From the human T2T-CHM13v2.0 reference genome, Homo sapiens: a stretch of 64,000 nucleotides of DNA. The stretch lies in NCBI RefSeq assembly GCF_009914755.1, contig NC_060947.1. The stretch is one strand, 5' to 3'. Below the pieces are notes generated by a model, which ran no database searches, had not been told where the DNA came from, and saw only the letters and a list, made by a program, of their open reading frames with translations. Shown here in pieces: positions 18,715 to 25,300 of the stretch. The position numbers and the translations under genes were made by a program. Each line of letters begins with the position of its first letter. Position 1 is the stretch's first letter.

Positions 18715-20146
18715 ATATTTTATTTTTTGTGGGTACATAGGTGTATATATTTATGGGGTACATGACATATTTTGATACAGGCATACAATGTATAAAAATC
18801 ACATCAGGGTAAATGGGGTATCCATCATCTCAATCATTTAGCCTTTCTTTGTGTACAAACAATCCAATTATAGTCTCAGTTATTTTGAAATGCACAGTAA
18901 ATTATTGTTGACTATAGTCACCCTGTTGTGCTATCAAATACTAGATCTTATTCATTCTATTTAATTATATTTTTGTACACATTAGCCATCCCCACTTCTC
19001 CTGCAACCCCACTACCCTTCCTGGCCTCTGGGAACCATCATTCTATTCTTTATCTCCATGAGTCCAATCGCATTAATTTTTAGCTCCCACAAATAAGTGA
19101 GAACATGTGAAGTGTGTCTTTTTGTGCCTGGCTTATTTCACTCAATATCTTCCAGTTCCATCCATGTTGTTGCAAATGACAGGATCTCATTCTTTTTTTG
19201 TGGCTGAATAGCACTCCATTGTGCATATGTATCACATTTCCTTTATCCATTCATCTGTTGACAGACACTTAGGCTCCTTCCAAATCTTGGCTATTATGAA
19301 CAGTGCTACAATAAACATGGGAGTGAAGATATCTCTTCAATATACAGATTTTCTTTCTCTCTCTCTCTCTCTTTCTTTTTTTCTTTTCTTTCTTTCAGAC
19401 AGGGTCTCACTCTGTCACCCAGGTTGGAGTGCAATGGCTTGATCTTGTCTTGCTGCAGCCTTGACCTCCTAAGCTCAAACAATCCTCCCACCTCAGCTTC
19501 TTGAGTAGCTGGGACTACAGGCATGTGCCACCATGCCTGGCTAATTTTTATATATATATATATATAATATATATTATATTTATATAATAATTTATATATA
19601 TAATATATATTATATAATATATTATATATATAATATTATATAATATATATTATATATAATATATATAATATATACAATATGTACAATATATATAATTTAT
19701 ATATATATAATATATATATATTATATATATATATATTAGAGATGGGTTTCATCATGTTGCCCAGGCTCTATTTCTGTGAAGAATGTCATTGGTATTTTGA
19801 CAGGGGTTGCATTGAATCTGTAGATTGCTTTCGGTAGTATGGTCATTTTAACCATATTGATTCTTCCAATCCATGAATATGGAATATGTCTCCATTTTTT
19901 GTGTCCTCTTCAATTTCTTTGTTTCACAGTTTTATTGTGGAGATATTTCACTTCTTTGGCGAAGTTTATTCCTAGGTATTTTATTTTATTTGTAGGTATT
20001 GTAAATGGGATTACTTTGCTGACTTCTTTTTCAGATGGTTTGTTGTTGGCATATAGAAATGTTATTGATTTTTGTATGTTGATTTTGTATTCTGCAACTT
20101 GACTGAATTTGTTTATTAGTTCTAGTAGTTTTTTGGTGAAGTCTTT
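18715..20146 (-). mobile_element. Old L1MA 3' part with an Alu (~19380-19767) whose linker expanded into an AT-rich tract
   Basis: L1MA 3' UTR and ORF2 motifs; resumes at 22301 after the nested insertion. Confidence 0.75.
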
Positions 20147-22300
<2,154 letters not shown>

Positions 22301-25300
22301 GGTGAAGTCTTTAGGCTTTTCTAACTGTAAGATCATATTATCTGCAAACAAGGATAATCTGACTTTTTCCTTTCCAATTCAGATGCCCTTTATTTCTTTT
22401 TCTTGTCTGATTGCTCTAGCTAGGACTCCCAGGACTATGTTGAATAACAGTGGTGAAAGTGGGTATCCTTGTCTTGTTCCAGATCTTAGAGGAAAAGCTT
22501 TCAGTTTTTCTCCATTCGGTGTGATACTAGCTGTGGGTCTGCCACATATGGCTTTTATTATGTTGAGGTATATTCCTTCTATACCCAGGTTTTTGAAGGT
22601 TTTTGTCATGAAGGGATGTTGAATTTTATCAAATGCTTTTTAGCATCAGTTGAAATGATCATATGGTTTTTGTCATAACCAACAATCGAAGTGAAAACTA
22701 ATAAAATGCTACACTTTAACTTCATTCCCCAGCTTTTAAACTTTTTGTTGTTTCTATTTATAGCTTATTATACTGTCTCTATCTTGAAAAGTTGTGGTAT
22801 TATTATTTTTGATAGGTTCATCTTTTAGTCTTTCTACTCAAGATAGAAGTAGTTTACATACTGCTGTTACATTGTTACACTATTCTGTGTTTTTCTGTGT
22901 ACTTATTAGTACCAGTGAGTTTTGCACCTTCATGTTTGAAGGATATTGTTACTGAATATACTATTCTAGGGTAAAAGGTGTTTTTCCTTCAACACTTTAA
23001 ATATGTCATGCCACTCTCTCCTGGCCTGTAAGGTTTTTTGTCTCCTCTGACTGTATATTTTCAAATAGCCTGTCTTCAAGCTCACTAATTCTTTTTTCTG
23101 CTTGATCAATTCTGCTCTTAAGTGACTCTGATGCATTCTTCAGTATGTTAATTGCATTTTTCATCTCCAGAATATCTGCTTGATTCTTTTTATTTCAATC
23201 TCTTTGTTAAATTTATCTGATAGAATTTCAAATTCCTTCCCTGGGTTACCTTGAATTTTGTTGAGCTTCCTCAAAACAACTATTTTGAATTCTCTGTCTG
23301 AAAGGTCACATATCTCTGCCTCTCCAGGATTGGTTCCTGGTGCCTTATTTAGTTCATTTGGTGAGGACATGTTTTCCTGGATGGCGTTAATGCTTGAGGA
23401 TGTTCACTGGTGTCTGGGCATTGAAAAGTTAGGTATTTATTGTAGTCTTTGCAGCCTGGACTTGTTTATACCTGTCCTTTTTGGGAAGGCTTTCCAAGTA
23501 TTCGAAGGAACTTGGGTTTTGTGATCTAAGTCTTTGGCCACTGCAGTCATATCTGCATTAGAGAGCACCCTGAGCTCAGTAATGCTGTGACTTTTGCAGA
23601 ATGGTAGAGGTACCTCTTTGGTGATCTTGGGTAAGATCCAAGATAATTCCCTGTATTGCCAGGCAGAGACTTGCTCTCTTCCTTTAGTTTTCCCCAAACA
23701 AATGAAGTCTCTCTGTCTGTGCTGAGCTGCCTGTAGCTGGGGGAGGGGTGATACAAGCACCTCTGTGTTTACAACAACTAGGACTTCGCTGGGTCAGACC
23801 CAAAGCCAGCACAGCACTGGGTCTTGCCCAAGGTCCATGGTGTCCATTGCCTGGGTACCGCCTATGTTCACTCAAGGCCCAAGGACTCTACAGTCAGCAG
23901 GTGGTGAATCCAGCTAGGCTTGTGTATTTCCTTCTGGGCGGTGAGTTCCCCCAGGCCCCAGGCAGGTTCAGAGATGCCATCCAGGAGCCATGGCCTGGAG
24001 TCAGGAACCTTAGGATTCGACCTAGTGCTCTATTCTACTGTGGTGGAGCCGACACCCAAGTTGTAAGACTAAGTCCTTCCTACTCATGCTTCCCCTTTCT
24101 TCAAGCAAGGACATGTCTCCCTGTGGCTACCACCACTCTAGGCTTGCAGAAGGTACTGCCTGGCTACTGTTGATGTTCATTCGAGGCCCAAGGGCTTGTC
24201 AGTCAGCTTGTGGTGAATGCTGCCAGTCCTGAGTCTCTTCCTTCAGGGCAGTGGGCTCCCCTCTGGCCCAGGGCAGGTCAAGGAGCCAAGGCCTGGAATC
24301 GGGGACCCCAGGAACCTAGTTGGTGCTCTACCCCACTGTGGCTAAGCTGGTACCCAAGCTGCAAGACAAAGTCCCCTTCACTCTTCTCTCTCCTTTCCTC
24401 AAGCAGAAGGAGTCGCTCCCCATAGCCACCACAACTGGGAATGTGCTGGGTCACACCTGATGCCAACATGGCTCTGAATCTCATCCAACGCCCATGGTGA
24501 GTAGTGCCTGGCTATCACCTCTAAGTATTCAGGGCCTAATGACTCTTTAGTCAGTAGGTGATGACTCCTGCCAGGACTGGATCCTTCCCTTCAAGGCAGC
24601 AGGTTCCTTTCTGGCCTAGGGTGTGTCTAAAGTGCCTGGGAGCTAGGGCCTGGAATGGGGGCCTCAGAATTCTGCCTGATACCCTATTCTACTGTGGCTG
24701 AGCTGGTATCCAAGTTGCAAGACAAAGTCCCTTTAACTCTTCACTCTCCTCTCCCCAAGCAGAGGGTAAGAGTCTCTCCCAGAGCTCCAAGCTATGCTGC
24801 CTGGGGTTAGGAGAGGGGTGACACAAGCACTCCCTTGGCCACCCCAGCTGCTGTCTCACTAGGTCACATGCACCCCAAGTCCATTGGCTCTAAGCTCAGC
24901 ACAGCACCAGGACTTGCCTAGGAATTGCAGTCCTTGTGGCCTAGACTGCCTTTCAAGTTTATTTAAAACCCCAGAGTTTTTATTTATATTTTTTATTTTG
25001 CTTTAAGTTCCAAGATGCACATGCAGAATGTGCAGGTTTGTTACACAGGTATACATGTGCCATGGTGGTTTGCTGCACCTATTGACCTGTCATCTAAGTT
25101 CCCTCCCCTTGTCCCCTACCCCCTGACAGGCCCTGGTGTGTGATGTTCCCCTCCTTGTGTCCATGTGTTCTCATTGTTTAACTCCCACTTATGAGTGAGA
25201 ACATGCAGTGTTTGGTTTTCTGTTCCTGTGTCAGTTTGCTGAGGATGATGGCTTCCAGCTTCAACCATGTCCCTGCAAAAGACATGATTTCATTCCTTTT

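What the first reader, a model, noticed from the sequence alone, without database searches (positions are those of the whole stretch)
20135..22312. L1 3' transduction delivered an intact NBEAL1 coding exon to Xp11
Seen: an old L1 is split at GGTGAAGTCTTT, which is duplicated at 20135-20146 and 22301-22312. Between the copies, on the minus strand, are a 1.2-kb young L1 3' end, its A-rich tail (~21102-21135), ~950 bp of further sequence, AATAAA (20168-20163) and a second poly(A). This is the structure of a 3' transduction. The cargo contains ttttttatag|105 nt|gtagga (20866-20970, plus strand), which reads [35 protein letters not shown] with no stop. Knowledge: I recognise this peptide as the NBEAL1 PH-BEACH junction (chr2q33); the GAG 3'-UTR diagnostic indicates L1PA2, active in great apes. 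Inference: a source L1 antisense in the NBEAL1 intron, ~130 bp past this exon, read through it, so the exon and its intron flanks were copied unspliced. This is exon shuffling caught at an early stage, too short for the ORF track to show.
Basis: partly seen in the sequence, partly recalled or inferred. Interest (0 to 1): 0.92.

Follow-up and report, generated by a model that had tools for sequence, protein, structure and literature searches.

The report
L1 transduction carrying an NBEAL1 exon
A few million years ago an L1 jumping gene landed on the human X chromosome carrying 950 bases copied from the NBEAL1 gene on chromosome 2, including one whole coding exon, but it sits between genes inside an older repeat, so it is a clean example of a known process, not a new gene part.

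Summary
GGTGAAGTCTTT occurs exactly twice in the window, at 20135-20146 and 22301-22312. It brackets one composite insertion inside an older minus-strand L1, whose two halves overlap by exactly 12 nt.

Read on the minus strand, the insert has four parts:
- a 1165-nt 5'-truncated L1 3' end (22300-21136)
- an A-rich tail (21135-21102)
- 950 nt of non-L1 DNA (21101-20152) ending 11 nt after AATAAA
- a very short poly(A)

The 950 nt match one other place in this genome, chr2:203650523-203651477, colinearly, with 15 substitutions in 947 aligned bases and two indels. That chr2 stretch lies in a plus-strand BEACH-family gene, between its last PH_BEACH exon and its first BEACH exon. The 105-nt exon translates 35 of 35 to human neurobeachin-like 1; the X copy matches 34 of 35 (one Ser-to-Ile change). 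Both splice sites are unchanged.

So this is a real L1 3' transduction of an NBEAL1 exon, copied unspliced because the L1 transcript was antisense to the gene.

Three points are not supported:
- No L1 lies next to the chr2 copy in this assembly.
- No sibling copies were found.
- No gene is annotated at the landing site, so "exon shuffling" remains potential only.

It is a new member of a known kind, of modest interest.

The parts
19601..20146 (-). Downstream half (in L1 sense) of the old host L1, part of ORF2. It ends in the 3' copy of the target-site duplication.
   Evidence: 71-74% identity over about 370 nt to 9 of 11 younger L1 loci (a tenth, L018, gave a 113-nt partial hit at 81%). Coordinates abut the other half with a 12-nt overlap.
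20135..20146 (.). Target-site duplication, copy next to the terminal poly(A). Plus strand GGTGAAGTCTTT; AAAGACTTCACC in L1 sense.
   Evidence: Exact 12-mer found twice only; 0 of 100 shuffles reach 2 matches.
20147..20151 (-). Remnant of the terminal poly(A) of the retrotransposed RNA (5 T on the plus strand).
   Evidence: Read from the sequence. chr2 homology begins at 20151/20152.
20163..20168 (-). AATAAA polyadenylation signal used by the read-through transcript, 11 nt before the end of chr2 homology.
   Evidence: The same hexamer is present in the chr2 parent.
20152..21101 (-). Transduced segment: a copy of chr2:203650523-203651477 (NBEAL1 intron, exon, intron), antisense to NBEAL1 as carried in the L1 transcript.
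   Evidence: Full-length colinear match. 15 substitutions in 947 aligned bases plus 2 indel events. Only two long copies in the genome.
20516..20735 (+). Alu-like element with an A-run before it, inside the cargo. It was inherited from the chr2 intron.
   Evidence: Query positions about 365-590 of the cargo match many loci at 78-94%. Present in both copies. The name Alu is from recall.
20866..20970 (+). Copy of the 105-nt NBEAL1 coding exon (phase 0-0) linking the PH-like and BEACH domains, with AG acceptor and GT donor kept.
   Evidence: Translation. 34 of 35 to human Neurobeachin-like 1 residues 681-715. 3 nucleotide differences from chr2, giving 2 synonymous and 1 Ser-to-Ile change.
21102..21135 (-). 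A-rich tail of the source L1, now (AAT)n(AAAG)n A8, internal to the insert.
   Evidence: chr2 homology ends at 21101-21104.
21136..22300 (-). 5'-truncated young primate L1: end of ORF2 plus the 3' UTR, 1165 nt.
   Evidence: 96.6-98.2% identity over its full length to 11 genomic L1 copies. It starts at CACCTTATAC, which is internal in all 11 relatives.
22301..22312 (.). Target-site duplication, copy at the truncated 5' end of the L1.
22301..22900 (-). Upstream half (in L1 sense) of the old host L1.
   Evidence: 75-78% identity to younger L1 loci.

Best explanation
This is a single L1 retrotransposition event with a 3' transduction.

1. A young primate L1 once sat on the minus strand of chr2, antisense in the NBEAL1 intron that follows the PH-BEACH linker exon, about 131-134 nt from that exon. 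This is inferred.
2. Its transcript ran past the L1's own weak poly(A) signal and through the exon in antisense. Because the RNA was antisense, the exon's splice sites were not recognised and nothing was spliced out. This is inferred from the orientation.
3. The transcript was cleaved and polyadenylated 11 nt after an AATAAA in the upstream intron. The signal and the end of homology are shown.
4. Target-primed reverse transcription then inserted the RNA into an old L1 at Xp11.23. The copy was truncated at its 5' end, leaving 1165 nt of L1, and a 12-bp target-site duplication formed. This is shown.
5. The source L1 is not at the chr2 site in this assembly. Most likely it never became fixed, or it was lost. 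This is inferred.
6. The delivered exon keeps its open frame and both splice sites. It lies in unannotated intergenic DNA, and its substitution rate does not differ significantly from that of the rest of the cargo.
For: - **One insertion.** The 12-bp duplication brackets the whole composite and is found only there. The old L1 halves overlap by exactly 12 nt in 9 of 9 loci where both halves hit, out of 11 loci examined.
- **Order of parts.** Minus strand: L1 3' end, A-rich tail, unique DNA, AATAAA, short A run, duplication.
- **Parent locus.** The unique DNA has one colinear parent, chr2:203650523-203651477, on the same strand as the window's plus strand. Homology stops at the poly(A) addition point on one side and at the L1 tail on the other. 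The chr2 sequence continues as unique DNA on both sides, so the direction of copying is chr2 to X.
- **The parent is an NBEAL1 exon.**
  - A PH_BEACH exon lies at chr2:203648735-860, and BEACH exons run from 203653428 onward, all on the plus strand.
  - The neighbouring exons translate to the residues that flank the 35-mer in a human protein fragment.
  - 7 of 7 database hits carry Beach Pfam domains. 3 of the 7 are named neurobeachin-like 1 or neurobeachin-like protein 1.
- **L1 and cargo are of similar age.**
  - Cargo: 15 of 947 sites differ between the two copies, which is 1.58% and about 0.8% per lineage.
  - L1 body: 12 of 1164 columns (1.03%) differ from a 70% or greater majority of 11 relatives. 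Of these, 7 (0.60%) are shared with none.
- **Target sites.** Both the chr2 boundary (TC|AAAG in L1 sense) and the X target (CT|AAAG) resemble the L1 endonuclease site TT|AAAA. The sequence is; the consensus is recalled.
Against: - No L1 lies next to the chr2 segment in this assembly, and there is no L1 homology within chr2:203648500-203653800.
- No sibling insertion carries the tag. 4 of 4 candidates were scored and only X and chr2 are long matches.
- The terminal poly(A) is only 5-8 nt.
- Both endonuclease-like sites differ from the recalled consensus at 2 of 6 positions.
- The internal tail could have acquired its AAT/AAAG pattern after insertion, so it does not prove a genomic origin.
- A nested second insertion into the L1's tail would leave the same picture.
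Confidence: 0.88

Rival explanations
1. Two nested events. The truncated L1 inserted first, making the 12-bp duplication. Later a retrocopy of an unspliced, polyadenylated antisense transcript from the NBEAL1 intron inserted, in the same orientation, into the L1's poly(A) tail. The second event's own duplication would be hidden in A's.
For: By recall, A-rich tails are favoured L1 endonuclease targets. A-rich sequence lies on both sides of the cargo. No source L1 is at chr2 and there are no siblings.
Against: It needs a rare kind of retrocopy: a 950-nt antisense intronic RNA whose 5' end happens to lie at an endonuclease-like TC|AAAG site. Only 5-8 A follow the cargo, and these would have to hold its poly(A), a duplicated target and the rest of the L1 tail. 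The L1 and the cargo show similar amounts of change. By recall, 3' transduction affects a sizeable share of L1 insertions, so the prior favours it.
Confidence: 0.05
2. A template-switch chimera. Reverse transcription began on a polyadenylated antisense NBEAL1-intron RNA. At that RNA's 5' end it jumped to the poly(A) tail of an L1 RNA, giving one insertion with one duplication.
For: There is a single duplication around the composite. The 5' end of the cargo in L1 sense starts AAAG, which could pair with a poly(A) template. No source L1 is at chr2.
Against: By recall, known L1-mediated chimeras usually join at arbitrary internal points of the second template, not at the very end of its tail. The jump would have to capture a long A-rich tail. 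The same unusual antisense transcript is needed as in the nested-insertion rival.
Confidence: 0.04
3. A DNA-level duplication or gene conversion moved chr2 sequence next to a pre-existing L1 on the X chromosome.
For: None specific. There is only the fact that two copies exist.
Against: The copy ends 11 nt after an AATAAA and is followed by an A run. It starts exactly at an L1 tail. A target-site duplication brackets the whole insert. All of these are hallmarks of an RNA intermediate.
Confidence: 0.01

Closest known systems
L1 3' transduction (Moran et al. 1999; Goodier et al. 2000; Pickeral et al. 2000). I saw these only as entries in the reference list of PMC9311842; their content is recalled.
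   Same: The L1 3' end with its own tail, then unique downstream DNA from the source locus, then a second poly(A) after a downstream signal, all inside one target-site duplication. The copy is 5'-truncated.
   Different: The cargo includes a complete coding exon with both splice sites. The source element is not in the assembly.
Dispersed copies of CFTR exon 9 with intron flanks next to L1 (Rozmahel et al. 1997; Ejima and Yang 2003). I saw these only as reference-list entries in PMC12533184; their content is recalled.
   Same: A natural germline case in which a single unspliced coding exon with intron flanks was moved by L1 machinery to other chromosomes.
   Different: By recall, the CFTR exon 9 copies are many. 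Here there is one copy only, from a different gene and at a different landing site.
SVA-mediated 3' transduction that duplicated AMAC1 (Xing et al. 2006; recalled, not seen in any call).
   Same: A retroelement read-through copied gene sequence to new loci in great apes.
   Different: That case moved a whole intronless gene that stayed expressed. Here a single exon landed with no sign of use.
Polymorphic and somatic L1 transductions used to trace source elements (PMC9311842: abstract and passages seen; PMC4862182 and PMC13009371: listing and abstract start only).
   Same: The unique tag identifies the source locus.
   Different: Those events are recent and often have an identifiable live source. 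This one is roughly 3-13 My old by divergence, and its source is gone from the assembly.

Membership tests
L1 3' transduction | One target-site duplication brackets the L1 plus the extra DNA | tested here: met
   The 12-mer is found twice only. The old L1 halves overlap by exactly 12 nt in 9 of 9 loci with both hits, out of 11 examined.
L1 3' transduction | The L1 3' end with its own A-rich tail lies upstream of the extra DNA, in the same orientation | tested here: met
   The L1 3' end is at 21136 and the tail at 21102-21135.
L1 3' transduction | The extra DNA ends shortly after a poly(A) signal and is followed by a poly(A) | tested here: met
   AATAAA at 20168-20163. chr2 homology ends 11 nt later, followed by 5 A (8 counting the duplication's AAA). 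The tail is very short.
L1 3' transduction | The extra DNA is colinear with a single-copy parent locus elsewhere | tested here: met
   chr2:203650523-203651477 matches all 950 nt. There is no third long copy; 4 of 4 candidates were scored.
L1 3' transduction | A source L1 lies directly upstream of the parent segment | tested here: inconclusive
   Absent in this one haploid assembly. The site looks like an unoccupied TC|AAAG site. Other humans and apes could not be examined.
NBEAL1 coding exon | The translation matches NBEAL1 protein | tested here: met
   X copy 34 of 35 to 'Neurobeachin-like 1' residues 681-715. chr2 copy 35 of 35 to a human fragment carrying PH_BEACH and Beach domains. 91% to the hamster protein.
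NBEAL1 coding exon | The parent lies in the gene, on the coding strand, between the neighbouring exons, with AG/GT boundaries | tested here: met
   The PH_BEACH exon is upstream and the Beach exons downstream on chr2 plus strand. The neighbouring exons translate to the flanking protein residues.
L1PA2 subfamily | Subfamily-diagnostic substitutions in ORF2 and the 3' UTR | not testable with these tools
   No repeat library was on hand. GAG is present, but by recall it is shared with older families. The age from divergence is 5.3 My (95% range 3.0-8.7) at 0.15% per My, or 7.9 My (4.4-13.1) at 0.10%. Table 2 of PMC3286893 gives 7.62 My for L1PA2 and 12.71 My for L1PA3.
Exon shuffling (exon taken up by a host transcript) | The delivered exon lies within a transcription unit and is spliced into its RNA | tested here: not met
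   The hub's RefSeq table lists no gene between 12014 and 59092. I had no RNA data, so unannotated use is not excluded.

The most novel reading that the evidence does not exclude
The delivered exon is on the same strand as UXT-AS1 and CXXC1P1 and keeps its open frame, acceptor, donor and at least 70 nt of unchanged intron on each side. It could be spliced into an unannotated plus-strand Xp11.23 transcript in some tissue. That would make this a natural L1-mediated exon shuffle in progress, not a dead copy.
Probability: 0.03. Interest if true: 0.6.

Novelty: new member of a known kind. Interest (0 to 1): 0.3.

Why it matters
L1 3' transduction was proposed in 1999 as a route to exon shuffling, but by my recall few natural germline cases carry a complete coding exon with working-looking splice sites. 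This is a well-resolved one: donor gene, exon, poly(A) site, target site and approximate age can all be read from the sequence. It also shows why antisense L1s inside genes can export unspliced exons.

Its weight is limited. The exon landed in intergenic repeat DNA, nothing shows it is used, and the mechanism is textbook. It is useful as a catalogue entry and a teaching example, and as a marker for dating and tracing a lost L1 source in the NBEAL1 intron.

Tried and rejected
- **The 35-residue peptide alone.** It gave no match in the PDB sequence search at E up to 10 and matched no Pfam family at E up to 10. It is too short, and the linker region is poorly conserved. The gene was identified by genomic position between Pfam-matching exons and by a protein database search.
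- **First protein database search.** I re-sent the window's own 42-codon open frame, 20866-20991, which adds 7 intron-encoded residues.
- **Sibling transductions.** None were found with the full cargo, where only 40 of 5355 candidates were scored and the rest were Alu-type and other repeat matches. None were found with the unique 362 nt next to the L1, where 4 of 4 candidates were scored and the two extra hits were 33-nt matches.
- **Source L1 at chr2.** None was found.
- **Relaxed or retained constraint on the X exon.** The exon has 3 of 105 sites changed against 12 of 842 elsewhere in the cargo. Fisher p = 0.23, so this is uninformative.
- **Literature.**
  - No relevant paper combines NBEAL1 with transduction and LINE-1. 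The one hit, judged from its title and abstract start, concerns monkey methylation.
  - NBEAL1 with retrotransposition gave one hit, a virology meeting report judged from its listing.
  - None of the 12 listed of 18 papers contains NBEAL1.
  - Pickeral et al. 2000 is not held.
- **DNA-level duplication.** Rejected, because the copy's ends coincide with a poly(A) site and an L1 tail.
Full report
**1. What is in the sequence**

The 12-mer GGTGAAGTCTTT occurs exactly twice in the 64-kb window, at 20135-20146 and 22301-22312. Shuffles of the window expect 0.03 matches, and 0 of 100 shuffles reached two.

The DNA outside the two copies is one older L1 on the minus strand. I compared window 19601-20146 and 22301-22900 by blastn with 11 other L1 loci.
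- In 9 of the 11, both pieces hit one place.
- In all 9, extending the alignments over their unaligned last 10-13 nt makes the two pieces overlap by exactly 12 nt of L1 coordinate. For example, in L023 one piece reaches 3389 and the other 3378.
- L018 gave a partial hit to one flank only, and L017 gave none.
- The old L1 is only 71-78% identical to the young copies over the long hits, so it is much older.

The 12-mer is therefore a genuine target-site duplication made in an intact old L1.

**2. Anatomy of the insert (minus strand)**

- After the duplication (AAAGACTTCACC in L1 sense) the L1 starts at CACCTTATAC, at 22300. In all 11 relatives this is internal ORF2 sequence preceded by ...CCTTCCTTA. 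The copy is therefore 5'-truncated.
- The L1 part, 22300-21136 (1165 nt), is 96.6-98.2% identical over its whole length to 11 other genomic L1 copies. In one search only 40 of 6172 candidates were scored.
- The L1 ends in ...CCCTAAAACTTAAATTATAATAATAATAAAGAAAGAAAGAAAAAAAAG. This is an L1 3' end with a degenerate A-rich tail (21135-21102).
- Next come 950 nt that are not L1 (21101-20152), with AATAAA at 20168-20163.
- The insert closes with 5 A (8 counting the AAA of the duplication) and the second copy of the duplication.

**3. Where the 950 nt came from**

A search of the window's own genome found the full 950 nt at only one other place, chr2:203650523-203651477, on the same strand as the window's plus strand. 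That call scored 40 of 5355 candidates. The remaining matches cover only the Alu-like and other repeat parts.

The unique 362 nt next to the L1 again found only X and chr2, plus two 33-nt matches, with 4 of 4 candidates scored. There is no sibling insertion with this tag in this genome.

In a pairwise alignment the two copies differ by 15 substitutions in 947 aligned bases (1.58%) and two indel events. One is 8 nt in an A run and the other is a 3-nt ATA.

Homology stops at ...TGTTTAATTTAATTTATTTGCC on one side, which is 11 nt beyond the AATAAA in L1 sense. On the other side it stops at ...GAATTATCTTT, exactly where the L1 tail begins. The chr2 sequence continues as different DNA on both sides. 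The copy is bounded and the chr2 locus is not, so the transfer went from chr2 to X.

**4. The exon**

Window 20866-20970 translates to [35 protein letters not shown]. The evidence that this is an NBEAL1 coding exon is as follows.

- The chr2 counterpart (chr2:203651245-203651349) gives the same peptide with Ser in place of Ile at residue 21.
- On chr2 plus strand, Pfam PH_BEACH positions 48-90 match at 203648735-203648860. Pfam Beach matches run from 203653428 (positions 2-34) through 203669983-203670105 (positions 199-240). The exon therefore lies between the last PH-like exon and the first BEACH exon.
- The neighbouring exons translate to ...FLNFKKE and KWVNREISNF.... These are exactly the residues that flank the 35-mer in a human protein fragment carrying both Pfam domains.
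- A protein database search with the window's 42-codon open frame returned 7 of 7 hits carrying Beach domains.
  - 'Neurobeachin-like 1 [synthetic construct]' matched at 97%, and hamster and camel 'neurobeachin-like protein 1' at 91% and 89%.
  - In pairwise alignments the 35-mer is 34 of 35 to residues 681-715 of the first and 32 of 35 to the hamster protein, which has Thr at the variable site.
- The same linker is weakly recognisable (57%, E = 0.009) in the chr3 BEACH gene, between its PH_BEACH and Beach matches.
- Beach matches fall at nine loci in the genome, and only one of them is on chr2. That this locus is NBEAL1 at 2q33 rests on the protein names and on recall. The papers listed place NBEAL1 at 2q33 in their titles and terms; I saw the listing only.

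The X copy differs from chr2 at 3 of 105 exon bases: two synonymous changes and one Ser-to-Ile change. The nearest differences outside the exon are 137 nt upstream and 73 nt downstream, so the acceptor, the donor and their surroundings are unchanged.

The exon's 3 of 105 changes against 12 of 842 in the rest of the cargo is not a significant difference (Fisher p = 0.23).

**5. Mechanism**

The L1 is on the window's minus strand, and the NBEAL1 exon reads on the plus strand. On chr2 the gene is on the plus strand. A source L1 giving this product must therefore have been antisense to NBEAL1, with its tail abutting chr2:203651477-203651480. That is 131-134 nt downstream of the exon in gene sense.

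Read-through from such an element would traverse the exon in antisense. Its splice sites would then be meaningless, which explains the unspliced intron-exon-intron cargo. The transcript would end at the antisense AATAAA. One target-primed reverse transcription event at a CT|AAAG site in the old X-linked L1 accounts for the single duplication and the 5' truncation.

The chr2 boundary also reads TC|AAAG in L1 sense. This is like an L1 endonuclease site; the consensus TT|AAAA is recalled.

**6. What does not fit, or is missing**

In this assembly there is no L1 next to the chr2 segment. The sequence runs straight on (...GAATTATCTTT GAATCTTCC...), and blastn of the young L1 against chr2:203648500-203653800 found nothing. 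The source is therefore absent here. It may have been lost, it may never have been fixed, or it may be present only in other haplotypes or species. None of these could be checked.

The terminal poly(A) is very short. Two rivals leave the same picture and cannot be excluded from one genome. One is a second retrocopy inserted into the L1's tail. The other is a template switch from an antisense intronic RNA to an L1 RNA. Both need an unusual 950-nt antisense intronic polyadenylated RNA starting at an endonuclease-like site, so I rate them at about 5% and 4%.

**7. Age and subfamily**

The cargo differs from its parent at 15 of 947 sites. The Poisson 95% range is 0.89-2.61%.
- At 0.15% per site per My per lineage this gives 5.3 My (3.0-8.7). 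That rate is the one used in PMC3286893, from passages seen.
- At 0.10%, a recalled alternative rate, it gives 7.9 My (4.4-13.1).

The L1 body gives a similar figure.
- It differs from a 70% or greater majority of its 11 relatives at 12 of 1164 columns (1.03%). Of these, 7 (0.60%) are shared with none.
- That matches the roughly 0.8% expected on one lineage, so L1 and cargo are of similar age.
- A second version of the same count added 60 nt of 3' flank. There the X copy scores 20 of 1223 columns, and the relatives 15-36 of about 1223.

Table 2 of PMC3286893 gives 7.62 My for L1PA2 and 12.71 My for L1PA3. L1PA2 is therefore plausible, but the upper bound of the slower-rate estimate also reaches L1PA3. 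The GAG triplet is there, but by recall it only excludes the human-specific Ta and pre-Ta groups. No repeat library was available to name the subfamily.

**8. Use at the new site**

The hub's RefSeq table shows no gene between UXT-AS1 (ends 12014) and CXXC1P1 (starts 59092), and no functional element near 20-22 kb. The exon sits inside an old L1. Nothing shows that it is transcribed or spliced, and I had no RNA data. 'Exon shuffling caught at an early stage' is thus a possibility, not a finding.

**9. Comparison and novelty**

This meets every structural criterion of an L1 3' transduction except a visible source element. The closest precedent by recall is the dispersal of CFTR exon 9 with intron flanks by L1; those papers were seen only in a reference list.

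Three searches of the held library found no paper linking NBEAL1 to L1 transduction.

Interest is modest.

Noticed in passing
window 20516-20531 versus L002 1865-1887: The A run in front of the Alu-like element inside the cargo is 8 nt shorter on X than on chr2. In the L1 read-through RNA this would have been a long U run that did not stop the transcript.
   Followed up: partly
window 22297-22312: The duplication ends in CACC (L1 sense) and the truncated L1 begins with CACC, giving a 4-nt direct repeat at the 5' junction. Both copies are present, so this is not the usual single-copy microhomology.
   Followed up: partly
window 21136-21150: The young L1 ends ...CTTAAATTATAAT, where all 11 compared relatives have a G (AAAGTATAAT or close variants). 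This is a private change of this copy or of its lost source.
   Followed up: no
window 20330-20680: This part of the cargo matches several other loci (chr6, chr1, chrX, chr11) at 71-72% over about 350 nt. An older interspersed repeat seems to lie in the NBEAL1 intron just upstream of the Alu-like element. By eye and recall it resembles an old L1 3' end split by the Alu.
   Followed up: no
G000 C3:47020457-47020756: In the chr3 BEACH gene, the PH_BEACH match and the linker homologous to this exon both report an open frame of 128 aa. If that is a single frame, they lie in one exon, whereas on chr2 they are separated by about 2.4 kb of intron.
   Followed up: no
L019 (G000 C1:247682306-247686470): Both old-L1 flanks hit this locus at two or three separate places and in both orientations. 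This suggests nested or inverted L1 copies there.
   Followed up: no
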